Of a DNA stretch of 34,229 bases, positions 12,778 through 25,872 are shown in pieces. The number at the start of each line of letters is the position of its first letter. Within the stretch, counting starts at the first letter, position 1. The notes below the pieces were generated by a model. The model was not told the DNA's origin. It searched no databases and was given only the letters and a program-made list of their open reading frames with translations. The translations under genes and the position numbers were made by a program. The stretch is from Flavobacteria bacterium RIFCSPLOWO2_12_FULL_31_7 (GTDB lineage: Bacteria > Bacteroidota > Bacteroidia > Flavobacteriales > Flavobacteriaceae), in the NCBI GenBank assembly GCA_001800945.1, contig MGWJ01000022.1:1-34229 (forward strand), read 5' to 3'.

Positions 12778-13302
12778 ATGGATAAAACAAAACCTGAAAT
12801 TGTAGAATTATATAACGATAAATTGAATTTTTTCGAGATTTTTTTCTCTTCCTTATTTTATACTTTTTCATTAGTTGCTTTTGTAAGTTATTTCTACTTT
12901 TTATTTAATTCTGGTTTTAGTTATGAGGTTTTTAAAGCCTCACCAGCTTTTTTAACATTAACTTTTGTTTTCCTAAATCCTGCAATTATTATTTCTGAAG
13001 TCAATATTATTAGAGTTAGTACCTCTGAAAAAAAGATTTTTCACACAATTGAAATTTTATTTTACAAAAAAAATAAAGTTATCGAAGCTGAATTTTTTGA
13101 TTACGTTGCGATTAATAAATCCAATTTAGGCTATAATGTAACTTTGTGGTATGAAGGAAATAGAAGGATGGAACTTGTATCTTTCTATAAAAAAGAAAAA
13201 GTATTTAATTATGCTAAAGCAGTAGCAAAAGGAATTAAAACGGATTTGTTAGATAAAACTGACCTAAAAAATCCCATTTGGACAGCATCAAAAGACTTAT
13301 GA
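12778..13302 (+). CDS. Hypothetical membrane protein (2 TM plus soluble beta-rich domain)
   Basis: Two hydrophobic segments. ATG 12778 preferred over TTG 12763. Stop overlaps the bioF start (ATGA). Confidence 0.7.
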   Translation: MDKTKPEIVELYNDKLNFFEIFFSSLFYTFSLVAFVSYFYFLFNSGFSYEVFKASPAFLTLTFVFLNPAIIISEVNIIRVSTSEKKIFHTIEILFYKKNKVIEAEFFDYVAINKSNLGYNVTLWYEGNRRMELVSFYKKEKVFNYAKAVAKGIKTDLLDKTDLKNPIWTASKDL

Positions 13303-14444
13303 AAATCCCAAATCCACTACAACAAAAATTAGATCTTCGTACAGAAACAAATGCTTTACGAAAATTGCCTGTTTCCACTAATGGAATCGATTTTTCTTCT
13401 AACGATTATTTAGGTTTTGCTAAAAGTCTAGAAATTTTCGATAATACACATCAATATTTAGTAGATAAAAATATCAAAGCAAACGGCGCAACAGGTTCTC
13501 GATTAATTTCTGGAAATCATCATTTATATACTCTTACAGAAGATTTTATCGCTCAATTTCATAATTCGGAAGCTTCCTTAATTTTTAATTCGGGTTACGA
13601 TGCGAATGTGGGTTTTTTTAGTTCCGTTCCGCAACGCAACGATATTATTTTGTATGACGAATTATGTCACGCATCCATTCGTGATGGCATCCAAATGAGT
13701 CATGCTAAATCGTATAAATTTCAACATAACGATTATGAAGATTTAGAAAGTTTATTGCGAAAATTTGTCACACTGAGCGGAGTCGAAGTGTCTGTTTACA
13801 TCGTTACGGAATCCGTTTTTTCTATGGATGGTGATGCACCAAACATAGAAACTTTGGTACAGCTTTCCGAGAAATTCAATGCGCTTTTAGTAATTGATGA
13901 AGCCCATGCTTTAGGTGTTTTTGGAGATAACGGTGAAGGATTAGTACAATCTCAGAATCTTCAAAATAAAGTTTTCGCCAGAATTATGACTTTCGGAAAG
14001 GGTTTAGGTTGCCACGGCGCTGCGATTTTAGGAAATACAGATTTAAAAGAATATTTAGTCAATTTTGCCAGAAGTTTTATTTACACAACCGGACTTTCAC
14101 CTCATTCGGTGGCAACAATCTTAATGGCTTATAAAAACTTAAATTCGTCTTTAGAACTTCAAAAACTGAAAAATAATATTAATTTTTTCAACCAACAAAA
14201 ACAATTATTAGGCATAAAACCTTTGTTTGTGTATAGTAAATCTGCGATTCATTCGGCTATAATTCCAGGTAATGAAAAGGTAAAACATATTGCTTCACAG
14301 TTACAAGAAAAAGGTTTTGAAGTCAAAGCAATCCTTTCTCCAACGGTTCCAGAAGGTCAAGAAAGATTGCGTTTTTGTTTGCATAGTTATAATTCTGAAC
14401 AAGAAATTTCCGCCGTAATCACCTGTCTTTACTCGCTTCTTTAA
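13299..14444 (+). CDS. bioF: 8-amino-7-oxononanoate synthase
   Basis: DFSSNDYLG, GSRLISGN, HASIRDG, ESVFSMDGD, DEAH, TFGK (PLP Lys); bioD and bioA nearby; ATG 13299 in an ATGA overlap. Confidence 0.9.
   Translation: MKIPNPLQQKLDLRTETNALRKLPVSTNGIDFSSNDYLGFAKSLEIFDNTHQYLVDKNIKANGATGSRLISGNHHLYTLTEDFIAQFHNSEASLIFNSGYDANVGFFSSVPQRNDIILYDELCHASIRDGIQMSHAKSYKFQHNDYEDLESLLRKFVTLSGVEVSVYIVTESVFSMDGDAPNIETLVQLSEKFNALLVIDEAHALGVFGDNGEGLVQSQNLQNKVFARIMTFGKGLGCHGAAILGNTDLKEYLVNFARSFIYTTGLSPHSVATILMAYKNLNSSLELQKLKNNINFFNQQKQLLGIKPLFVYSKSAIHSAIIPGNEKVKHIASQLQEKGFEVKAILSPTVPEGQERLRFCLHSYNSEQEISAVITCLYSLL
13767..13791 (+). repeat. REP-like palindromic element inside bioF
   Basis: GTCACACTGAGCGGAGTCGAAGTGT: GC-rich in an AT-rich gene, ACACT/AGTGT stem, same architecture as the intergenic copy at 25957-25983. 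Confidence 0.7.
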
Positions 14445-14777: not shown

Positions 14778-15647
14778 ATGAAAAATTATATAAAATTAGC
14801 TGTTGTAACAGGCTTGTCATTGTTATTTAACCAAGTAAACGCTCAATCAGAAAAAATATCTCCAGTAAATGAGAGTATTCAAAATTCGTTACTTTGGGAA
14901 ATTTCTGGTAATGGGTTAGAAAAACCTTCTTACTTATTTGGAACAATTCACATGATTTGCGAAAGTGATTTTTTAATGAAAGAAAAAGTAAAATCTTCTT
15001 TCGAGAAAACGGAAGAATTAGCTTTAGAATTAGATTTTGATGATCCTAAAGAATTACAAAATATGCAAAAATTAGCTGTTTCGCCAATTCCTTTATCAGA
15101 AGCACTAACTAAAGAAGAATACGCAAGACTAGAGGTTTTGCTAAAAAATAAATATGCACTAGAAATTAAACAATTTGAAAATTACAATTTAATTGGTGTG
15201 ATGAGTGTGTTGATGATGAAGCAATTAAACTGTACACCAAAAGTGTACGAAATTGAATTTTTAAAAATGGCAATGAAGCGCAAAAGTATCGTTCATGGAA
15301 TGGAAACAGTAGAAGATCAGGAAAAAGCTTTTGGGGATTCATTTAATAATAAGGAATTTATTGAACAATTAGAAAGTTATGATGCGACTTATTTTGCTGA
15401 GCTAATTCGTTTTTATAAAAATGAAGAACTTGATAAAATTCTGAAAATGACAACTGATGATAAGTTTATGGACGAGGAAGCACAACTTTTTATGTTGGAT
15501 AATCGAAACAAAAAATGGATTCAAAAAATGCCAGAAATGATGCAACAACACAGTGTTTTCTTTGCTGTTGGTGCTGCACATTTACCTGGAGATAATGGTG
15601 TGATTAATTTATTAAAAAAGTCAGGTTATACGGTTAAACCTATCTAA
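14778..15647 (+). CDS. TraB/GumN (Tiki-like) family exported protein
   Basis: Signal peptide; SLLWEISGNGL, SYLFGTIH, GMET, RNKKW, FAVGAAHL. Confidence 0.9.
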   Translation: MKNYIKLAVVTGLSLLFNQVNAQSEKISPVNESIQNSLLWEISGNGLEKPSYLFGTIHMICESDFLMKEKVKSSFEKTEELALELDFDDPKELQNMQKLAVSPIPLSEALTKEEYARLEVLLKNKYALEIKQFENYNLIGVMSVLMMKQLNCTPKVYEIEFLKMAMKRKSIVHGMETVEDQEKAFGDSFNNKEFIEQLESYDATYFAELIRFYKNEELDKILKMTTDDKFMDEEAQLFMLDNRNKKWIQKMPEMMQQHSVFFAVGAAHLPGDNGVINLLKKSGYTVKPI

Positions 15648-15657
15648 AATTTTAGTT

Positions 15658-16161
15658 TTGAAAGTTAAAGAACAAGAATTTTTATCCCGAATTGACAAAC
15701 ATAAAGGTATACTTTATAAAGTTTCCAAAATGTACATGGATACTAGAGACGATCAAGAAGATTTGTTTCAAGAAATAGTTTGTCAATTATGGAAAGCCTA
15801 CGAAACGTTTAAAGGTGAAAGTCAATTTTCAACTTGGATGTACCGTGTGGCGATTAATACCGCAATTATTTTCTTAAAAAAGGAAAAACGAAAGGTGGAT
15901 AAATATGAATTGTCTTCTTCAAATATTCGTGACGAAGAAAGTGATTTTGAAGAAAAAGAAAATCAAATTGAACATTTTTATAAAGCTGTTCAGAAATTGA
16001 AAAAAATTGATAAAGCCATTATTTTTTATCAATTAGAAGGATTTTCACATAAAGAGATTGGAGAAAATTTAGGTATTTCAGAAGGAAATGCCAGAGTCAA
16101 ATTGAATAGAGCAAAAGAAAAATTAAAAGAAATAATTAAAAATCAAGGATATGGATTTTAA
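15658..16161 (+). CDS. ECF RNA polymerase sigma-70 factor
   Basis: EDLFQE, FSTWMYRVAINT (region 2); GFSHKEIGENLGISEGNARVKLNRAK (region 4); TTG start. Confidence 0.93.
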   Translation: MKVKEQEFLSRIDKHKGILYKVSKMYMDTRDDQEDLFQEIVCQLWKAYETFKGESQFSTWMYRVAINTAIIFLKKEKRKVDKYELSSSNIRDEESDFEEKENQIEHFYKAVQKLKKIDKAIIFYQLEGFSHKEIGENLGISEGNARVKLNRAKEKLKEIIKNQGYGF

Positions 16162-16765
16162 TGATATACAAAACGCGTGGAATAACGACAAGAATGAAAA
16201 TGTTACACTTCCCACGAACTTAGAAAAATTGCAAGCCGCAAATACACCGCTAGATAAGATCAGAAAAAATCTAAAAAATGAATTTATTTATCAAATCATT
16301 TCAATCGTAGTATTAGCGTTTGTACCATTACTATATGGGTTTTCAAAGTCTATAACAATTTTATATTTTACTTTGTTTAGCATTTTTGTGGCTATTTGTG
16401 TTTACTATTTGTTAAAACTTTACTTTTTTTATAAAAGAATAAATAACGTTATGTTAAACACGAAGGACAGTTTGTATGAAACTTATTTTGATATTCGATT
16501 GAATATGGAAATCTATAAAACTTTTGGTTTTGCTTTAACGCCTTTTTTAGTCTTATTTTTGGTTGGATTGATGTATTTTGAAATATCTAAAACTCAAGAA
16601 ATTGTTTTAAATAATTTACAAAATTCACATTTAATCATTCTCTTTGTTTTAATTGCTTTTTGTATTTTATTTATGGGAATTGCTTTAGAATGGTGGGTGA
16701 AATACTTTTATGGGAAATATGCCAAGGAAATTAAAAAAGTATTAGAGGAACTGAAAGAACAATAA
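16151..16765 (+). CDS. Probable membrane anti-sigma factor (4 TM)
   Basis: Overlaps the sigma gene by 11 nt; MDFNDIQNAW N-terminus; four hydrophobic segments; ends YGKYAKEIKKVLEELKE. Confidence 0.65.
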   Translation: MDFNDIQNAWNNDKNENVTLPTNLEKLQAANTPLDKIRKNLKNEFIYQIISIVVLAFVPLLYGFSKSITILYFTLFSIFVAICVYYLLKLYFFYKRINNVMLNTKDSLYETYFDIRLNMEIYKTFGFALTPFLVLFLVGLMYFEISKTQEIVLNNLQNSHLIILFVLIAFCILFMGIALEWWVKYFYGKYAKEIKKVLEELKEQ

Positions 16766-16828: not shown

Positions 16829-17230
16829 ATGAAAAAATTCACACAAATTGCCAATTATCAATATTCATCTGAAGCTTATTTAATTAAAGGAAAATTAGAA
16901 TCAGAAGGTGTGGAAGTTTTTCTGCAAAATGAAAATACGATAAATACGGATCCTTTATTAAGTAATGCGGTTGGCGGAGTGAAATTGTTTGTGAATTCAG
17001 ATGAAGTTATCAAAGCCAAACAAATTTTATCTTCTATTATTGAGTATTCTGTTGATGATAAAGGACAATTATTAACTTGTCCAAATTGTGGTGCTCAAAA
17101 AGTGGAAATGTTTACGACAATTAAAGACCTTAAATCGTTTTTTGCTTTTCTTTATGGTTTGTTAACGCTATCGATGCCGTTTTATACGAAGCATAAGTAC
17201 AAATGCGAAAACTGTAATTTTGAATTTTAA
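16829..17230 (+). CDS. DUF2007 (putative signal-transducing) protein with split Zn ribbon
   Basis: EAYLIKGKLESEGV, SNAVGGVKLFV; CPNCG...hydrophobic segment...CENC. Confidence 0.8.
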   Translation: MKKFTQIANYQYSSEAYLIKGKLESEGVEVFLQNENTINTDPLLSNAVGGVKLFVNSDEVIKAKQILSSIIEYSVDDKGQLLTCPNCGAQKVEMFTTIKDLKSFFAFLYGLLTLSMPFYTKHKYKCENCNFEF

Positions 17231-17322: not shown

Positions 17323-17943
17323 ATGAAAGTATTCGTTACCGGAATTGGAACTGATGTTGGAAAAACAATCGCCTCATCCATTATTGTAGAAGCTTTAGAA
17401 GCGGATTATTGGAAACCTATTCAAGCTGGCGATTTAAATCATTCAGATTCACATAAAATTAAATCGTATATCTCCAATCCGAAATCTCAAATTTTAGAGA
17501 ATGCTTACGCTTTACAAACACCTGCTAGTCCACACTTAGCTGCAGCAATTGACGGAATTACTATCGATAGGAATAAAATTATCGAACCTAAAACTAAAAA
17601 CAATCTAGTAGTGGAAGGTGCTGGTGGGATTTTCGTACCATTAAATCATTCTGATTGTGTGATTGATTTAATTCAACCCGATAATAAAGTTGTTGTAGTT
17701 TCTCGTCATTATTTGGGAAGCATCAATCATACCTTAATGACTATCGAAATTTTAAAATCGAGAAATTTAAATGTAGCCGGAATTATTTTTTCAGGTGATG
17801 AAAATCCTTCTTCTGAAAGTATTATTTTAGAAAAAACAGGAATTAAAATGATTGGAAGAATTGATAACGAGCCGTATTTCGACCAAAATGTTATCAAATA
17901 TTACGCAGATTTGTTTAGAGAAAATTTGAATGAATTAGTTTAA
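17323..17943 (+). CDS. bioD: Dethiobiotin synthase
   Basis: FVTGIGTDVGKT, WKPIQAG, PASPHLAA, VEGAGG, LGSINHT. Confidence 0.96.
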   Translation: MKVFVTGIGTDVGKTIASSIIVEALEADYWKPIQAGDLNHSDSHKIKSYISNPKSQILENAYALQTPASPHLAAAIDGITIDRNKIIEPKTKNNLVVEGAGGIFVPLNHSDCVIDLIQPDNKVVVVSRHYLGSINHTLMTIEILKSRNLNVAGIIFSGDENPSSESIILEKTGIKMIGRIDNEPYFDQNVIKYYADLFRENLNELV

Positions 17944-18241: not shown

Positions 18242-19519
18242 ATGACACTTTCAGAAAAAGATAGTTTATACAACTGGCATCCTTATACACAACATAAAAT
18301 TTATTCTCATTTTCCAGCCATCGTAAAAGGTGAAAAGGAATTTTTATGGGACGAAACTGGTAAAAAATATATTGATGCTATTGCTTCTTGGTGGGTAAAT
18401 CCGTTCGGACATAGCAATAGGTTTATTGCGGATGCGATTTACAAACAATTGATTACATTAGAACACGTTTTATTTGGTGGTTTTACACATAATGTGGTTG
18501 TAGAATTAGCGGAGAAATTAGTAGAAATTTTACCTTCCAATCAAAAGAAATTTTTTTATTCAGATAATGGTTCTACGGCAGTGGAAGTGGCTATAAAAGC
18601 GTCATTTCAATATCTGTATAATAAAGGAATTAAAAAAGATACGATTATCGCTTTTGAAGATGCCTTTCACGGTGATACTTTCGGAGCGATGGCAGTGAGT
18701 GGAATTGGATTGTTTACAGAAGCTTTTCAAGATGCGTTAGTTAAGGTAATTCGAATTCCAGTTCCCACAAAAGATAACGAAGAAAAATCGAAAGTAGCTT
18801 TACAAAAAGCAATTGCTGAAAATGAAGTTGCTGCTTTTATTTTTGAACCTTTAGTTTTAGGAGCAGCTGGAATGGTGATGTACGAAGCTTCTGAGTTAGA
18901 CGAATTGATTTCGATTTGTAAACAAAATAGTGTTTTTACGATTGCTGACGAAGTAATGACAGGTTTCGGAAAAACCGGAAAACTTTTCGCTTGTGATTAT
19001 TTGAAAAATCAACCAGACATGATGTGTTTGAGTAAAGCCTTAACTGGCGGAACGATTCCAATGGCGATTACCACTTTCACCCAAGAAATTTTTGATGGTT
19101 TTGTGAGTGATGATATTAATCATGCTTTGTTTCACGGGCATACATTTACAGCAAATCCAACAGGTTGCGCAGCTGCATTGGCAAGTATTTCATTGTTGAA
19201 AAACCAAGAAATTTTAGATAATATTCAACATATAAATGCTTCTCATCTTCAATTTGAAAAGCATATTTCACAACATCCAAAAGTCAAAATCACTCGTGTT
19301 TTAGGTGTAATTTTCGCTTTAGAAGTTGAAGTTTCCGAAAAACAAGGTTATTATAGCAATTTACGTAATCAGTTTTATAATTATTTTATTGAGAAAGGTG
19401 TAATTTTGCGTCCAGTTGGTAATATCATTTATATTTTGCCTTCCTATATTATTTCTGAAGAAAGTTTGCAACAAATTTATACCACTATTGAATTAGCATT
19501 AAACGAGATTCCATGTTAA
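18242..19519 (+). CDS. bioA: Adenosylmethionine-8-amino-7-oxononanoate transaminase
   Basis: WHPYTQ, DAIASWWVN, SDNGSTAVEVAIK, FHGDTFGAM, DEVMTGFGKTG, LSKALTGG, HGHTF. Confidence 0.96.
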   Translation: MTLSEKDSLYNWHPYTQHKIYSHFPAIVKGEKEFLWDETGKKYIDAIASWWVNPFGHSNRFIADAIYKQLITLEHVLFGGFTHNVVVELAEKLVEILPSNQKKFFYSDNGSTAVEVAIKASFQYLYNKGIKKDTIIAFEDAFHGDTFGAMAVSGIGLFTEAFQDALVKVIRIPVPTKDNEEKSKVALQKAIAENEVAAFIFEPLVLGAAGMVMYEASELDELISICKQNSVFTIADEVMTGFGKTGKLFACDYLKNQPDMMCLSKALTGGTIPMAITTFTQEIFDGFVSDDINHALFHGHTFTANPTGCAAALASISLLKNQEILDNIQHINASHLQFEKHISQHPKVKITRVLGVIFALEVEVSEKQGYYSNLRNQFYNYFIEKGVILRPVGNIIYILPSYIISEESLQQIYTTIELALNEIPC

Positions 19520-20664
19520 AACAACCTGTTTTTATTCATTCAATTGCTTCCATTTCTGCTTTAGGAACTTCTCTTGACGAAATTTGGGACAATTATGTAC
19601 ATGAAAATTCTTTATTTCAAAGGTTCGATGCAAATAATAAATCGTATTGGGTTTCTCAATTTTCAGCGCTTTCTACTCAACTTTTACAAGATATAATGGC
19701 ATCTGATTCTAAATACAAACATTTAGATCAATCAGTAGTTATGGCCATTTTTGTAGCTAGAAAATGTTTTGAAAATAGTCGATTTTCCAATACAAATTTG
19801 GGGATAAATTTTGGTTCTTCTCGTGGTGCTACAACTTTATTTGAGAAACACCATTCTGATTTCATTACTGATGGTTTTGTTTCTACTTTTACTTCACCAT
19901 CTACTACTTTAGGAAATATTTCCAGTTGGGTTTCTCACGATTTACATGCTGATGGACCAGAAATTTCGCATTCAATAACGTGTTCAACTGGTTTACATGC
20001 CGTGCTAAACGGTATAGCTTGGTTGCAATCAGGAATGTCCGATCAGTTTTTAGTTGGCGCTAGTGAAGCTCCGTTGACTCCTTTTACGTTAAGTCAACTG
20101 TCAGCTTTAAAAGTATATTCAACAGAAGAAAATTCTTTAGCAAATAGAAGTTTAGATTTTTCTAAAACCAGCAATACCATGGTTCTTGGTGAAGCAGCGG
20201 TATGTTTGTCGTTATCGCTTGCATCCGAAAATGCTTTAGCTAAAATTACTGGAATAGGGTATGCTACGGAAGTTTTATCGAGTAGTACTTCAATTTCTAC
20301 TGATGCGAAATGTTTTCAAAAATCAATGCAAATGGCAATTGGATCTAATAATTTAGAAGATATTGATGTGATTGTGATGCATGCGCCAGGTACTATTCAA
20401 GGTGATAGTACCGAATTTGAGGCAATCAAAACTGTTTTTGGTAATCATTTACCACTTTTGACTTCAAACAAATGGAAAGTAGGGCATACTTTTGCAACTT
20501 CTGGATTGTTGAGTATTGAATTGGCTATTTTAATGTTACAAAAGCAAAAAATTATTGCATCTCCTTTTTATGCCAATCCACAAAAAAATAAAAAAATATC
20601 CAAAATTTTGGTAAATGCAGTTGGTTTTGGAGGAAATGCAGTTAGTGTTATAGTTGAGTTGTAG
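19513..20664 (+). CDS. FabF/FabB-type beta-ketoacyl synthase homologue, biotin-locus associated
   Basis: TCSTG (Cys157), MHAPGT (His290), K320, GHT (His325), GEAA, NAVGFGG; overlaps bioA by 7 nt. Confidence 0.88.
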   Translation: MLKQPVFIHSIASISALGTSLDEIWDNYVHENSLFQRFDANNKSYWVSQFSALSTQLLQDIMASDSKYKHLDQSVVMAIFVARKCFENSRFSNTNLGINFGSSRGATTLFEKHHSDFITDGFVSTFTSPSTTLGNISSWVSHDLHADGPEISHSITCSTGLHAVLNGIAWLQSGMSDQFLVGASEAPLTPFTLSQLSALKVYSTEENSLANRSLDFSKTSNTMVLGEAAVCLSLSLASENALAKITGIGYATEVLSSSTSISTDAKCFQKSMQMAIGSNNLEDIDVIVMHAPGTIQGDSTEFEAIKTVFGNHLPLLTSNKWKVGHTFATSGLLSIELAILMLQKQKIIASPFYANPQKNKKISKILVNAVGFGGNAVSVIVEL

Positions 20665-21042
20665 TTTTTTATGGCTTTTTTGAGGCTACTTTTTCAAAAT
20701 ATTTTTTTCTGATTTTATTTCTTACAAAAATTTTCTTTTCTATTTTTCAAAATCAATACGTGTATTATGTCGATTTTTGTTAACATTTCGTCGTATTTTT
20801 TATTACTAAGATTTCCCTCACGAAAATATTAACAAAACATCATCTAATTGTTAAATATCTATATAAATCATTTGGATTTTGAATATTTAACATATTTAGC
20901 TTTTTATGTTAGAATATAATTCATACTTTTAACAGAATATATGAATATATTTTAGCTCAATTTAACAGAAAAATTTATAAAACAACATAAAAATTGTAAA
21001 AAAAATGCATTAAATCTATTCTAACTCTTAATCACTTTGGAT

Positions 21043-24000
21043 ATGATTAAAAAAATTACTCCTTTTACAAGAATACTATTACCTACTCTAGTTTTCTTCT
21101 TACTTACTGCGGTAAGTTTCTCTCAAAATGCAAATTTGGTAATTTCTGGTAATGGAAATACTATTGCAAATAATGATATCACTCCAAGTGCGCTAGATTT
21201 TACAGATTTTGGAAATGTAAATATTGGTTCCACTAAAGACAATACATTTGTATTAAGAAATGATGGCACTGGAGGTACTGCAAGTGCTCGAAGAATTACT
21301 TTTGCGAATCCGGCAGTAGTGATATCAGGTGTAGATGCAGCTCAGTTTTCTATTGTTTCTGGCCCTTCTAGTGGAAATACACTTAACGGTTTAGGAACTG
21401 TTTTTTCACCAAATTTAGTCATCCGATTTACACCAATTGCACCAGCGGGTATAAAAAACGCAACAATTACGGTTAGATATACAAATAATGGTGGAACTTT
21501 AACTTACGTATATGCCACCAGAGGAACTGCAATTTCTGCTCCAGAAATGGATGTGCGTGGAAATTTAAATTCTATTGTTGATGGAGATGTAACACCTTCT
21601 ATTATAGATTATACGGATTTTGGTTCAACATCTGTTGGTGGAAGTATTTTCAGAACTTTTTTCGTACATAATACAGGATCTCAAAATTTAAATTTAGGGG
21701 CGATAACATTTTCAGGAGCAAATCCTGGCGATTTTTCTATTACTACTGCACCTGCAGCTGTAGTTATCCCAGGTGGAAATACTTCTTTTGTAGTTACGTT
21801 CAACCCATCCGTAATCGGAACAAAAACAGCAACTATTTCTATCGTAAATGATGATTCAGATGAAAATCCATACAACTATAATTTAACAGGTTCTTGTATT
21901 CAAACATTTTTTGATAGTGATGGTGATGGAATTTTTGATAACGTAGATATTGATGACGATAATGACGGAATTCGAGATACTATTGAAGAAACAAATTGTA
22001 ACAATGCCAACGGTCCAAAAGTTAATTATAAATTTTTAAATGAAAGTTTTGGTTCCGGACCAAGAACAACAATTAATACAACCTATAATGCCATTACTAC
22101 CTATTGTTATGAAAACGGGGTAGGTGCTCCAAATACTGTGGCTTGTCCAACTCTAAGTTCAGTTGACTTAAATGACGGAGAATATGCGGTTGCTTCTAGT
22201 TGTCAAATTGCCTCATGGGCACCAACTTACTGGCACATGGGTGGCGACCATACGGGCGATGTAAACGGAAGAATGGCTATTTTTAATGCGTCTTACACTC
22301 CTGGAATTTTTTATACCGCTTCAATAACTGGAGCACTGCCGAATATTCCAATTACTTATAGTTTTTGGGTGTTAAATATTGACAGAACGGATGCTCCTGG
22401 GATCGCTACCAGATTACGTCCTAATGTAAGAGTAGAGTTCAGAGATGTAAATAATAATCTTTTAACATCAATAAGCACAGGTAATATTGCTCCAACAACT
22501 GCTGGAAATTTAGCTGGAAATTGGGTGCAGTTTACCGCTAGTTTAAACTTAAATGTAGATGCATTTAATGTGACTTTTATCAATAACGAAACGGGTGGAC
22601 TAGGGAATGATTTAGCATTAGATGATATTTTAATTACTCAAGCGTTATGTGATTTAGATTTAGATGGTGTTGCAGATGTTTTCGACTTAGATTCAGATAA
22701 TGACGGAATTGAAGATATTATTGAGGTAGGTTTAGGGAATTTAAGTAACGCCAAAGGAAGAATGGATGTGGCTTGGATGGATGCTAATGCAAATGGTTTA
22801 CACGATAGCGCCGAAGGAATATTATCTGCTCCTGATTTTGATGGTGATGGTGCTGCTAACTATATGGATTTAGATTCTGATAATGATGCCATTTTTGATG
22901 TGGACGAATCAGGTGCTGGAAATGCTAATGCCGTGCCTGGATTTGTGAACGGAGATGGAGATATCACTGGAGATGGAAAAGGAGATGGCGCTGATACAGA
23001 AACGTTCAGAAGTAAAGATACTAACGGTGACGGAATTGTTGAAGGATATGGTGATGGTATTTTAGATTTATACGATTATGGATTGAATATCTATGGGAAC
23101 TTAGATCAAGGTTCGCTTATTGCACCATTTTTAAATTATGTTTTAGATACAGATGGTGACGGTGCTCCAAATTATTTAGATGTAACAAGCAATGGAAGTT
23201 TTGATATTACCAATACACTTTATGCTTCTCTAGATACAAATAATGACGGAATTATCGATGGAAATACAGATCTTGATAAAGATGGAATTGTTGATGCTTT
23301 TGATACTAATACTGCTTATTTTGGTTCGCCAAGAGATCTAAACAGAAAACTTTTATTAGAATTTGATGGAAGAAACGATTATGCACAAAGTACAGCTATT
23401 TTAGGAGGCTTGCCAGCAGCAACATTAATGTCATGGATTAATTTAGCGAACGGTTACAATGCAGATGGAGTAATTGTTGGACAGAATAATTTCCAATTGA
23501 AAGTGTCTAATATTAAAAGATTACAAGCTAAGGTAAATGGAACGACGGTTACATTCAACACAGCATTAAATACCAATCAGTGGTACCATGTTGCAGCTAT
23601 TTATTCTGGCGGAAGTGTAAGATTATATATAAATGGTTTACAAGTCGCTTCCCAAGCTTTAGTTGGAAATATTGGAGCAGATGCTTCTTTATTAACTTTA
23701 GGAAAAAATCCTGCTTCGAATACTGATTATTTTACAGGAAAAATAGATGAAGTTCGTGTGTTTAACATCGGATTAACTGATGTACAATTGCAAAGAATGG
23801 TATATCAAGAGGTTAAAAATAACGCTACTCAAGTTAGAGGTGAAGTAATTCCAAAAGATGTTGGCACCTTACCATTTGCTAACTTAGTACGTTACTACCG
23901 AATGGATGTGTATAAAGACGATATTATTGATGATTTATCTACACCTGCTATTGATTTGGTTGGTACCAAAATTTTCAATCATAAAGTGATAAATGTGCAA

Positions 24001-25872
24001 CAGGCACCAATGCCTTTCTTAACGGAAAGAGTAGGTGATTTTGCAACAGCTGTAAATAGTCCAACAAAAGAAATTAGAGGATTAGATGTTATGGATTACG
24101 ATTGGTCAATTGTAAATGTATCACATACTATTACAGAAACTTCAAATTCTACAGATTTAGGCTTAATTTTAAATCCTGGTGCAACTATCAAAATGACTAA
24201 CGATAATAAGTTACAAAACGATTGGTACTTATTATTAGATGGTGTAATTGATTTAGTAGGGCGTTCTCAACTGGTTCAAACTGCACAAAGTGATTTAGAA
24301 CCAACTAGTGATGGTTGGATTGAAAGAGACCAACAAGGTGCGTCTAACATATACAATTATAATTATTGGTCTTCGCCAGTTGGACCAGTAAATGGAAGCG
24401 TTAATAATAGTAATTATACAGTCGCAACGGTTTTAAGAGATGGAACAAATCCATCAAGTCCAACACCAATAAACTGGATTGGTGGCTATAACGGAGCTCC
24501 AACTAATCCAATAAGTTTAGCGGGATATTGGATTTATAAATTTCAAAATGTTACTGGTGTGTATGCGAACTGGACTCAAGTTTTACAAACAGGATCTTTA
24601 AGTCCGTCACAAGGCTACACGATGAAAGGTAGCGGTGCAGCTACTCCTAAACAAAATTATACGTTCATTGGGAAACCCTACAACGGTGATATTACCAATC
24701 CAATTTCTGCAAATAATTTGAATTTGAGTGGTAATCCTTATGCCTCAGCTATTGACGCAGATAAGTTTATTGATGATAATATTGTTTCTGTGGCAGGCGC
24801 TTCTGGAGCAACTAATGGTACGATTTATTATTGGGAACATTCGGCTCTTAATAATACGCATGTTTTACAAGATTATCAAGGAGGTTATGCCGCTTACACT
24901 AAAGTTGGAGGTACACCACCAATTGCTCCTCCAGGAATTAATGGATTAGGAGGGAATACAAAAATTGCTCAACGTTTTATTCCTGTTGGACAAGGATTCT
25001 TTGTTTTTGGAAGTGCTACAGGTGGAAATATTACTTTTAATAATTCTCAAAGAATATTTGTTAAAGAAAATGATCCAGCTTCTTTTGAAATGTTTAGAAG
25101 TGCCAATCCAAATGCCACTAATAACGCAAATGATAACTTTTCAACTAATGAATTTGCTAAAATTCGTTTAGGATTTAATTCTGCGAATAACTTTCACAGA
25201 CAACTTTTATTGGGTTTCATGAATGAGTATGCTACCGATAATATTGACCCAGGATATGATGGTGTTCATTTAGATGACCAGCCTAATGATATGTATTTTA
25301 GAAGCCAAGAAACTAATTTGATTATTCAAGGTGTTGGCGTTTTCAATCCATTAAAAAGACATCCGATAGGTGTTAAAACAGATCAAACAGGTTTTGTAGA
25401 AATTGTTTTAGATGATGTTGAAAATTTTGATGCGAATAGAAAAGTGTTTATTTTCGATAATGAAACTGGTTTGTTTCACAACATTAAAACACAACCTTTT
25501 AAAGTGAAGTTACCTGCTGGAGTTCATAATAATAGATTTTATTTAACTTTTAATAATAGAAGTACTCCTGGAACTGTTGTAGCCAGAACCATTTCAGATG
25601 ACACTAAAATAAATGAGGAATTAAACGAAGCTATTGAGGTGAAATTTGAAAGTACAAATCAAGTACTTCAAATTGCAAATACTGATAAAAACACTACAGT
25701 TAACAAAGTACAATTATACAATTTAGTAGGTCAATTGATTAATGCTTGGGATGTTAGAAATGATGAGCAAAGCAATATTTTAATACCAATGTCGTCCAAC
25801 AGTACTGGAGTGTACATTGTAAAAGTGGAAACTACTAACGGAAGTTTTAGTAAAAAAGTAAGTGTAAAATAA
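21043..25872 (+). CDS. Large T9SS type A-secreted protein: two choice-of-anchor D/Ig-like domains, DxDxDG Ca-binding repeats, LamG-like domain, CTD
   Basis: Signal peptide; twice D-x-TPS-x-x-D-x-TDFG; many DSDGDG/DLDSDND repeats; WYHVAAIY...LYINGL...GKIDEVRVF; C-terminal TGVYIVKVETTNGSFSKKVSVK. ATG 21043 preferred over TTG 21037. Confidence 0.9.
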   Translation: MIKKITPFTRILLPTLVFFLLTAVSFSQNANLVISGNGNTIANNDITPSALDFTDFGNVNIGSTKDNTFVLRNDGTGGTASARRITFANPAVVISGVDAAQFSIVSGPSSGNTLNGLGTVFSPNLVIRFTPIAPAGIKNATITVRYTNNGGTLTYVYATRGTAISAPEMDVRGNLNSIVDGDVTPSIIDYTDFGSTSVGGSIFRTFFVHNTGSQNLNLGAITFSGANPGDFSITTAPAAVVIPGGNTSFVVTFNPSVIGTKTATISIVNDDSDENPYNYNLTGSCIQTFFDSDGDGIFDNVDIDDDNDGIRDTIEETNCNNANGPKVNYKFLNESFGSGPRTTINTTYNAITTYCYENGVGAPNTVACPTLSSVDLNDGEYAVASSCQIASWAPTYWHMGGDHTGDVNGRMAIFNASYTPGIFYTASITGALPNIPITYSFWVLNIDRTDAPGIATRLRPNVRVEFRDVNNNLLTSISTGNIAPTTAGNLAGNWVQFTASLNLNVDAFNVTFINNETGGLGNDLALDDILITQALCDLDLDGVADVFDLDSDNDGIEDIIEVGLGNLSNAKGRMDVAWMDANANGLHDSAEGILSAPDFDGDGAANYMDLDSDNDAIFDVDESGAGNANAVPGFVNGDGDITGDGKGDGADTETFRSKDTNGDGIVEGYGDGILDLYDYGLNIYGNLDQGSLIAPFLNYVLDTDGDGAPNYLDVTSNGSFDITNTLYASLDTNNDGIIDGNTDLDKDGIVDAFDTNTAYFGSPRDLNRKLLLEFDGRNDYAQSTAILGGLPAATLMSWINLANGYNADGVIVGQNNFQLKVSNIKRLQAKVNGTTVTFNTALNTNQWYHVAAIYSGGSVRLYINGLQVASQALVGNIGADASLLTLGKNPASNTDYFTGKIDEVRVFNIGLTDVQLQRMVYQEVKNNATQVRGEVIPKDVGTLPFANLVRYYRMDVYKDDIIDDLSTPAIDLVGTKIFNHKVINVQQAPMPFLTERVGDFATAVNSPTKEIRGLDVMDYDWSIVNVSHTITETSNSTDLGLILNPGATIKMTNDNKLQNDWYLLLDGVIDLVGRSQLVQTAQSDLEPTSDGWIERDQQGASNIYNYNYWSSPVGPVNGSVNNSNYTVATVLRDGTNPSSPTPINWIGGYNGAPTNPISLAGYWIYKFQNVTGVYANWTQVLQTGSLSPSQGYTMKGSGAATPKQNYTFIGKPYNGDITNPISANNLNLSGNPYASAIDADKFIDDNIVSVAGASGATNGTIYYWEHSALNNTHVLQDYQGGYAAYTKVGGTPPIAPPGINGLGGNTKIAQRFIPVGQGFFVFGSATGGNITFNNSQRIFVKENDPASFEMFRSANPNATNNANDNFSTNEFAKIRLGFNSANNFHRQLLLGFMNEYATDNIDPGYDGVHLDDQPNDMYFRSQETNLIIQGVGVFNPLKRHPIGVKTDQTGFVEIVLDDVENFDANRKVFIFDNETGLFHNIKTQPFKVKLPAGVHNNRFYLTFNNRSTPGTVVARTISDDTKINEELNEAIEVKFESTNQVLQIANTDKNTTVNKVQLYNLVGQLINAWDVRNDEQSNILIPMSSNSTGVYIVKVETTNGSFSKKVSVK

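What the first reader, a model, noticed from the sequence alone, without database searches (positions are those of the whole stretch)
19513..20664. bioA-coupled FabF-type ketosynthase with an Arg in the acyl pocket: candidate new route to the pimelate precursor of biotin
Seen: a 383-aa KAS overlapping bioA by 7 nt in a locus with bioF and bioD and no bioC, bioH, bioW or bioI. It keeps Cys157/His290/His325 and Lys320, so it is FabF/FabB-type (Cys-His-His), unlike the FabH-type BioZ of alphaproteobacteria. The FabF motif GSGIGG reads GSSRGA here (Arg104, nt 19822-19824). Established: that Ile (E. coli FabF Ile108) lines the acyl channel and influences chain length, and BioZ uses an Arg to hold the free carboxylate of glutaryl-CoA. 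Inference: this enzyme binds an unmethylated dicarboxylic acyl primer (malonyl or glutaryl) and elongates it towards pimeloyl-ACP, a convergent methylation-independent entry to biotin synthesis. The alignment is by eye, and I cannot confirm that the family is unpublished.
Basis: partly seen in the sequence, partly recalled or inferred. Interest (0 to 1): 0.85.

Follow-up and report, generated by a model that had tools for sequence, protein, structure and literature searches.

The report
Arginine-gated ketosynthase for biotin precursor
A fatty-acid-type condensing enzyme with an invariant arginine at a position that gates the substrate tunnel in its relatives sits among the biotin genes of this flavobacterium and of nearly all biotin-making members of its family that were sampled, and it likely builds the vitamin's seven-carbon precursor by a route that has not been tested experimentally.

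Summary
Observation confirmed. The 383-aa ORF overlaps bioA by 7 nt, has a FabF fold and keeps Cys157/His290/Lys320/His325. Arg104 aligns with FabF Ile108. It is invariant in 146 of 146 diverse homologues and absent from 29 of 29 other KAS I/II controls. All 80 of 80 genome loci lie within 8 kb of a bio gene. In 120 family genomes (one per genus), 79 have both this gene and bioA, 40 have neither, and the one bioA-only genome carries bioG-bioC instead. None of the 79 has BioC over cut-off, BioW or a BioE-like gene. Best reading: it is the dedicated pimeloyl-precursor enzyme, probably condensing unmethylated glutaryl thioester with malonyl-ACP, as BioZ does, but on a different scaffold. No biochemistry exists. 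Up to 83 of 113 bioA-positive genomes across the class lack any detected precursor gene, so this enzyme is not the only possible route. The concept has precedent: BioZ, and a FabF-like gene required for biotin in Desulfovibrio; one Desulfovibrio-type KAS that I examined is not an orthologue. I found no paper on this family. This scan had already reported it on other genomes (8 notes listed).

The parts
19513..20664 (+). Divergent FabF-fold (KAS I/II-type) ketosynthase, 383 aa; the candidate pimeloyl-precursor enzyme
   Evidence: Pfam PF00109+PF02801; TIGR03150 fabF 133 bits against a 494 cut-off; AF2 pLDDT 97.1; FabF TM 0.91, Z about 53, rmsd about 2 A
19822..19824 (+). Arg104, at the FabF Ile108 back-gate position
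   Evidence: 146/146; 0/29 controls
19894..19908 (+). S128-P129-x-T131-T132, a polar segment replacing the hydrophobic I/V-P-M-M/L pocket segment of FabF
   Evidence: S128 145/146, P129 146/146, T131 142/146, T132 142/146; FabF controls read FFIPMLIPD or FFVPMMISD
19981..19983 (+). Cys157, predicted catalytic nucleophile
   Evidence: 146/146; aligned to the FabF catalytic Cys
20095..20100 (+). Gln195 and Leu196; Leu196 (Met in 116/146) is at the FabF Phe202 gate position, Gln195 replaces the Gly before it
   Evidence: Q195 145/146; alignment
20380..20382 (+). His290, first catalytic His (HAPGT; FabF has HGTST)
   Evidence: 146/146
20470..20487 (+). Lys320 to His325, conserved Lys and second catalytic His
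   Evidence: both 146/146
20623..20634 (+). GFGG gating loop with Phe372 (FabF Phe400)
   Evidence: G371, F372, G373 145/146; role from PMC9006962 passages
18242..19519 (+). bioA, overlapping the ketosynthase start by 7 nt
   Evidence: TIGR00508 519 bits, over cut-off
17323..17943 (+). bioD
   Evidence: TIGR00347 over cut-off
13278..14444 (+). bioF, the enzyme that would consume the pimeloyl thioester
   Evidence: TIGR00858 best hit, E 1.4e-100, under cut-off; orthologues in 68/80 loci

Best explanation
This gene encodes a FabF-fold ketosynthase that travels with the biotin genes and likely makes biotin's seven-carbon precursor by condensing an unmethylated glutaryl thioester with malonyl-ACP. 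Proposed steps: (1) glutaryl-CoA or glutaryl-ACP acylates Cys157 (inferred; the genome encodes a glutaryl-CoA dehydrogenase homologue, so glutaryl-CoA is probably a metabolite here); (2) Arg104, with Gln195 and the Ser/Thr segment 128-132, closes the tunnel at the FabF back gate and holds the free omega-carboxylate (position shown by alignment, contact inferred); (3) His290/His325/Lys320 decarboxylate malonyl-ACP and form 3-oxopimeloyl-ACP (residues shown, activity inferred); (4) housekeeping FabG, FabZ and enoyl reductase finish pimeloyl-ACP, since no dedicated ACP, reductase or dehydratase recurs beside the gene (absence shown, use inferred); (5) a C7 diacid would not fit behind the Arg, so elongation stops and BioF, BioA, BioD and BioB take over (inferred). 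Confidence in the role 'supplies the pimeloyl precursor', whatever the primer, is about 0.87; the figure below is for the glutaryl version.
For: Invariance: Arg104 is 146/146 among homologues 35-55% identical to the query, like the catalytic residues. It is kept in 8/8 still more divergent members and absent from 29/29 FabF-type and other KAS controls. Linkage: 80/80 scanned loci have a bio gene within 8 kb and 69/80 have one as a direct neighbour. The link holds in different gene orders: after bioA, before bioB, overlapping the start of bioF in 4 genomes, and as the last gene of compact bioB-F-D-A-KAS or bioF-D-A-KAS operons in other families (L038, L041, L042, L175). Co-occurrence: in 120 family genomes, 79 have both, 40 neither, 1 bioA only, 0 KAS only. 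In 6 of the 79 the gene is more than 10 kb from bioA or on another contig. Replacement: the one exception, G375, has bioG-bioC in its operon and is the only genome of 120 with BioC over cut-off. BioW is 0/79 and BioE-like 0/120 (the same query found 9 in the class sample). In 200 class genomes, 20 KAS, 9 BioE-like and 1 BioC genomes do not overlap, and all are bioA-positive. Geometry: FabF I108/F202 gate the tunnel at about C7-C8, and I108F stops at C6 to C8 (PMC9006962 passages). Glutaryl-CoA dehydrogenase homologue on C89, E 8.5e-129 to solved GcdH.
Against: No assay, mutant or expression data exist. I could not measure the Arg104 rotamer in the model. Up to 83 of the 113 bioA-positive class genomes show no KAS of this family, no BioE-like gene, no BioC and no clear BioZ orthologue, so Bacteroidota seem able to keep the late pathway without any recognised precursor gene; that weakens the 'only candidate' argument. 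Genomes are kin, and the gene usually sits next to bioA, so some joint losses may be block deletions; I built no species tree to count independent losses. BioZ R147A kept partial activity. Two FabF features differ: the D265-N404 gate pair reads Glu253 and Ala376, and HGTST reads HAPGT, so the reaction cycle may not be the standard one. The own genome is 67% complete. Nothing tested here tells glutaryl from malonyl as the primer.
Confidence: 0.62

Rival explanations
1. Same role, different primer: the enzyme does both elongation rounds from an unmethylated malonyl primer (malonyl to glutaryl to pimeloyl), as proposed for the Desulfovibrio cluster, with no link to lysine or tryptophan catabolism.
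For: All linkage and co-occurrence evidence applies equally. KAS I/II enzymes are ACP-dependent iterative elongases (established). A flexible Arg plus several Ser/Thr could serve two chain lengths. The basic residue at the FabF R206 ACP-contact position is Arg or Lys in 99/146. PMC10102598 proposes malonyl-ACP elongation without methyl esters (passages).
Against: The I108 gate lies at about C7-C8, far from a C3 carboxylate. No dedicated ACP, reductase or dehydratase recurs in 80 loci, unlike the Desulfovibrio-type operon, so two rounds of charged intermediates would have to pass housekeeping enzymes.
Confidence: 0.22
2. It works in biotin precursor supply but not as a condensing enzyme: for example, it transfers a glutaryl or pimeloyl group between CoA and ACP, or shortens a longer diacid by the reverse reaction.
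For: The gate pair and the HGTST motif are altered. The protein is 383 aa, shorter than FabF (about 412), and overlaps bioF in one lineage.
Against: Both His, the Lys and the GFGG loop needed for decarboxylative condensation are invariant or nearly so. No BioW or BioE-like gene was found that could supply a diacid to be transferred.
Confidence: 0.09
3. It is a hitch-hiker with another job (a special lipid or other metabolite), and these bacteria get pimelate from housekeeping fatty-acid synthesis or an unknown gene.
For: Up to 83 of 113 bioA-positive class genomes have no detected precursor gene. In 3 of 18 hand-picked loci there is no bio gene nearby (L040, L043 on a 2-kb contig, L044).
Against: 0 of 99 KAS-positive rows across the family (79) and class (20) samples lack bioA; the samples share one genome. 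The three unlinked genomes have bioA elsewhere. The link is kept in three gene orders, and bioG-bioC appears exactly where the gene is missing.
Confidence: 0.07

Closest known systems
BioZ (FabH/KAS III-type; Agrobacterium, Mesorhizobium, Brucella, also Rhodothermus; PMC7645780, PMC8024396, passages read)
   Same: A single stand-alone ketosynthase in the bio operon, in genomes without bioC/bioH. BioZ condenses glutaryl-CoA with malonyl-ACP and has polar residues (S84, R147, S287) at the tunnel end. This is the reaction predicted here.
   Different: BioZ is KAS III with Cys-His-Asn. This protein is KAS I/II with Cys-His-His and superposes best on FabF. BioZ's Arg is only partly required. Not an orthologue; any shared chemistry would be convergent.
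Desulfovibrio extended biotin operon with FabF-like DVU2563 (PMC545781; PMC10102598, passages read)
   Same: A FabF-like KAS inside a bio operon without bioC/bioH; transposon mutants lose fitness without biotin; a methyl-ester-free route and a less hydrophobic active site were proposed.
   Different: It comes with a dedicated ACP, a FabG-like and two FabZ-like genes. The one operon of this type that I retrieved (L298, metagenome contig, identified by gene order, not DVU2563 itself) has a KAS that is 20% identical, reads GSGPHL instead of GSSRGA, scores 106 bits on the family profile (housekeeping FabF 173-197), and falls on the FabF side of a quick tree on a long, unsure branch.
FabF (KAS II) of fatty-acid synthesis
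   Same: Fold (TM 0.91, Z about 53), Cys-His-His plus Lys, GFGG loop.
   Different: 20-26% identity; 133 of 494 cut-off bits; Ile108 to Arg, Phe202 to Met/Leu with an added Gln, polar 128-132 segment; a separate ordinary FabF exists in the genome.
BioE diiron oxygenase route of Weeksellaceae and other Bacteroidota (PMC12704756 section 5 and passages; PMC12915131 passages)
   Same: Fills the same slot in Bacteroidota bio operons; mutually exclusive with this gene in my samples.
   Different: Unrelated fold and chemistry (oxidative cleavage of long acyl chains). The term FabF occurs in neither main text; their supplements were not read.
AmcF-AmcG ketosynthase of cispentacin synthesis (PMC10698177, passages read)
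   Same: A type II KS that condenses a C5 dicarboxylic starter (2-oxoglutaryl-ACP) with malonyl-ACP, showing that this fold can take a free carboxylate.
   Different: A heterodimer that also cyclises the product; unrelated pathway; only 62 bits against a 325 cut-off.

Membership tests
KAS I/II (FabB/FabF) superfamily | Thiolase fold of FabF type | tested here: met
   AF2 pLDDT 97.1; Foldseek TM 0.91; VIA Z about 53, rmsd about 2.0 A over about 374 residues
KAS I/II (FabB/FabF) superfamily | Cys-His-His triad plus conserved Lys and GFGG loop | tested here: met
   C157, H290, K320, H325 146/146; GFG 145/146
KAS I/II (FabB/FabF) superfamily | Decarboxylative Claisen condensation with malonyl-ACP | not testable with these tools
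   needs an enzyme assay
FabF equivalog (TIGR03150) | Score over the curated cut-off | tested here: not met
   133.4 against 493.75 bits
FabF equivalog (TIGR03150) | Hydrophobic I108-F202 back gate and D265-N404 pair (PMC9006962) | tested here: not met
   Arg104 and Leu/Met196; Glu253 and Ala376
BioZ | KAS III scaffold with Cys-His-Asn | tested here: not met
   Cys-His-His; Pfam gives PF00109/PF02801, not the ACP_syn_III domains
BioZ | In the bio operon of genomes lacking bioC/bioH | tested here: met
   (bioC tested across 120 genomes; bioH only in the own genome)
BioZ | Condenses glutaryl-CoA with malonyl-ACP; complements E. coli bioC/bioH mutants | not testable with these tools
   needs genetics and assay
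Desulfovibrio-type extended bio operon | Dedicated ACP, FabG-like and FabZ-like genes beside the KAS | tested here: not met
   none in this window and none recognised, by eye, among the 22 commonest neighbour clusters of 80 loci
Desulfovibrio-type extended bio operon | Orthology of the KAS | tested here: inconclusive
   one retrieved example (L298) is 20% identical, lacks the Arg motif and groups with FabF, but on a long branch in a quick tree; DVU2563 itself was not seen

The most novel reading that the evidence does not exclude
A distinct, widespread family of FabF-fold enzymes, in an estimated thousands of GTDB contigs, is the biotin entry enzyme of most biotin-making Flavobacteriaceae and several other Bacteroidota lineages. 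Converting the hydrophobic back gate into an Arg/Gln/Ser/Thr carboxylate clamp let one stand-alone KAS II make pimeloyl-ACP with no methylation, no esterase and no dedicated carrier: a separate invention of BioZ-like chemistry and a further route beside BioC-BioH, BioI/BioW, BioZ, BioE and the Desulfovibrio cluster.
Probability: 0.75. Interest if true: 0.8.

Novelty: new variant of a known kind. Interest (0 to 1): 0.7.

Why it matters
How bacteria make the pimeloyl chain of biotin is the open, variable part of the pathway. Flavobacteriaceae are abundant in water and soil, and 79 of the 80 bioA-positive genera sampled have no BioC, BioW or BioE-like gene. This family fills that gap with one gene and makes the question testable by one deletion and one E. 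coli complementation. It would also correct vitamin-prototrophy calls in metagenomes, where the gene is annotated as ordinary fabF. It would show how a KAS II pocket is rebuilt for a charged chain, which is useful for making dicarboxylic acids and for biotin production without the BioC step.

Tried and rejected
(1) Ordinary second FabF: rejected on score, pocket residues, tree and the presence of a separate FabF. (2) BioZ orthologue: rejected on triad and fold. (3) Hidden known routes in KAS-positive genomes: BioC over cut-off only in G375; 15 other genomes had partial methyltransferase hits of 69-88 bits, which I did not count as BioC. BioW 0/79 and BioE-like 0/120. P450/BioI and BioH were searched in the own genome only. 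(4) BioZ as the route in the unexplained class genomes: a bio-operon FabH from G002 gave only 34-41% FabH-level hits in the listed matches, with no set standing apart; inconclusive, because one distant query may miss orthologues. (5) The single-sequence search missed 8 divergent members that the profile found. The profile's weakest member scored among ordinary FabFs and 99 matches were not listed, so 20 is a lower bound and 83 an upper bound. (6) The ESM Atlas gave only generic names in Bacteroidota, and 10 cluster look-ups gave a taxon for one; no support for range outside the phylum. L095, labelled Bdellovibrio, is a 6-kb MAG contig 55% identical to the query, and I treat it as a probable mis-bin. 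(7) The careful tree did not finish; the quick tree is reported. (8) Literature: all 10 searches found no paper on this family. The FEMS review PMC8371270 was not held; subscription papers and supplements were not seen. (9) Fisher tests (p 4e-31 and 5e-6) overstate because genomes are kin, and I do not rely on them. (10) No complex prediction or read mapping was run.
Full report
Observation. The ORF at 19513-20664 is 383 aa and overlaps bioA (18242-19519) by 7 nt. It matches the two ketoacyl-synthase Pfam domains, but reaches only 133 of the 494 bits needed for the FabF equivalog. bioD and bioF lie upstream on the same strand. The closest named homologues are from Flavobacterium. The assembly is 67% complete. 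It holds bioB and an ordinary FabF on other contigs, and no BioC or BioH over cut-off, BioW, P450, BioE-like or BioG match. Because the assembly is incomplete, the argument from absence rests on relatives.

Fold and pocket. An AlphaFold2 model from a 146-sequence alignment has mean pLDDT 97.1 and superposes on FabF with TM 0.91, Z about 53 and rmsd about 2 A. Sequence and profile alignments put Arg104 on FabF Ile108 and Leu196 on Phe202. A review (PMC9006962, passages) describes I108-F202 as a gate at about C7-C8 of the bound chain and reports that I108F mainly elongates C6 to C8; a 2026 preprint (passages) agrees. I aligned the query with 145 of the 150 best representatives of 50%-identity clusters (5 fragments or atypical hits dropped). 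Arg104 is present in 146 of 146, one of only 11 invariant columns, together with the catalytic residues. Ser128, Thr131, Thr132, Ser154, Thr156 and Gln195 are each at 142-145 of 146. None of 29 other full KAS I/II sequences from the same kinds of genomes has Arg there (one of these controls, L195, is from the unpublished genome G325; my label 'aryl-polyene type' for some controls is recalled). A quick tree of 47 sequences puts the 29 Arg-bearing rows on one side of a long branch (SH-aLRT 100). I had no coordinates, so the direction of the Arg side chain is inferred. Two departures from FabF are noted: the D265-N404 gate pair reads Glu253 and Ala376, and HGTST reads HAPGT.

Linkage. It estimated about 3500 pattern matches; 493 of the 600 examined were relatives, and the best 80 were kept, nearly all Flavobacteriaceae by title. 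All 80 have bioA, bioB, bioD or bioF within 8 kb, 69 have one as a direct neighbour, and 79 show GSSRG (one is cut by a contig end). Of 18 hand-picked loci, 15 are linked. They include compact bioB-bioF-bioD-bioA-KAS or bioF-bioD-bioA-KAS operons in other families and a bio cluster in one genome of another class. In four genomes of a divergent lineage the gene overlaps the start of bioF instead. No ACP, reductase or dehydratase stood out among the 22 commonest neighbour clusters, judged by eye.

Co-occurrence and replacement. In 120 family genomes, one per genus (118 of high quality), 79 have the gene and bioA, 40 have neither, one has bioA only and none has the gene only. The exception, G375, has bioB-bioA-bioF-bioG-bioC-bioD and is the only one of the 120 with BioC over cut-off. 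BioW was found in 0 of the 79 and a BioE-like gene in 0 of 120. I identified the BioE-like query by its position beside bio genes and a divergent regulator-like gene, as described in PMC12704756 section 5, not by sequence identity to the characterised protein. In 200 class genomes, 113 have bioA; 20 have this family (12 by single sequence, 8 more by profile with the Arg checked), 9 a BioE-like gene and 1 BioC. The three sets do not overlap and all are bioA-positive. These tallies include the unpublished genomes G269 and G325 as rows. In a phylum sample of 200, dominated by other classes, 13 had the family by single-sequence search.

Results against. Up to 83 of the 113 bioA-positive class genomes have none of these genes, and a bio-operon FabH query showed no clear BioZ set. 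Of 40 bioA loci chosen as KAS-negative, 5 had a BioE-like gene, 2 had bioC, 1 turned out to hold a divergent family member, and the rest showed no recognisable precursor gene, including several intact bioBFDA operons. So Bacteroidota have at least one more unexplained solution, and 'nothing else could do it' is not a safe argument. Joint loss with bioA can partly reflect block deletion, although in 6 of the 79 genomes the two genes are far apart or on different contigs (read by eye). Kin are not independent.

Mechanism. The catalytic set is intact and the tunnel gate is charged, so the simplest reaction is condensation of a short diacid thioester with malonyl-ACP. The gate position suits a C5 diacid better than a C3 one and would exclude a C7 one, which gives a natural stop at pimeloyl. 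The genome encodes a glutaryl-CoA dehydrogenase homologue, which suggests a glutaryl-CoA pool; I did not test this across relatives. BioZ shows that one condensation plus housekeeping enzymes suffices (PMC7645780, PMC8024396, passages), and AmcF-AmcG shows that a type II KS can take a C5 diacid starter (PMC10698177, passages). I put the precursor role at about 0.87 overall: 0.62 for glutaryl, 0.22 for two rounds from malonyl, with a non-condensing role at 0.09 and an unrelated role at 0.07.

Comparison and novelty. It works like BioZ (predicted) but is not a BioZ: the triad and fold differ. It is not an ordinary FabF. The one operon of that type that I could retrieve has its own ACP-like, FabG-like and FabZ-like genes and a KAS without the Arg motif, less like this family than housekeeping FabF is. 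Ten full-text searches found no paper on the flavobacterial family; subscription literature, one key review and all supplements were out of view. The scan itself has reported the family before on other genomes (8 notes listed, 13 windows matched); those are unchecked AI notes and add no evidence.

Verdict. A real, strongly supported candidate for the missing first step of biotin synthesis in Flavobacteriaceae: a new variant of a known kind, untested, and easy to test. Interest 0.7.

Noticed in passing
class sample; e.g. L138, L139, L156, L172: Up to 83 of 113 bioA-positive genomes, some with intact bioB-F-D-A operons, have no Arg-KAS, BioE-like gene, BioC or clear BioZ: a further unexplained pimelate source in Bacteroidota.
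   Followed up: partly
L145:9438-10157, also L152, L154, L160, L166: An uncharacterised protein of about 240 aa with no Pfam match sits between bioB and bioF in 5 of 40 loci that lack the ketosynthase. It has a signal-peptide-like start; it could be a biotin-related outer-membrane protein (guess).
   Followed up: partly
L047, L048:6357-8104, L049, L053; 25 of 80 loci: One or two Cupin_8/JmjC-type genes of about 290 aa follow bioB in many Flavobacteriaceae loci; the link to biotin was not tested.
   Followed up: no
window 14778-16765 (+): A TraB/GumN protein, an ECF sigma factor and a membrane protein (anti-sigma-like, my guess) interrupt the bio cluster between bioF and bioD; the same block is in about 10 of 80 related loci.
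   Followed up: no
window 16829-17230 (+): DUF2007-related protein with a C-terminal Cys cluster just before bioD; a similar cluster recurs in 24 of 80 loci.
   Followed up: no
L376:576-1355 (own genome, C89): A DUF3050 iron-redox (heme-oxygenase-like) protein directly follows the glutaryl-CoA dehydrogenase gene.
   Followed up: no
L298:8981-17760: Desulfovibrio-type extended biotin operon; its KAS has GSGPHL and an Arg in the neighbouring pocket segment (WMLRYLP), which suggests a separate polar remodelling of the pocket.
   Followed up: partly
G450:C3:391027-392247 and G457:C1:2657906-2659243: Two family members match in two pieces within one open frame of 441 or 453 aa, implying an in-frame insertion near residue 205-240.
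   Followed up: no
window 21037-25872 (+): 1611-aa T9SS-secreted protein with choice-of-anchor D and LamG domains directly after the ketosynthase; large secreted proteins are at this spot in many Flavobacterium loci.
   Followed up: no
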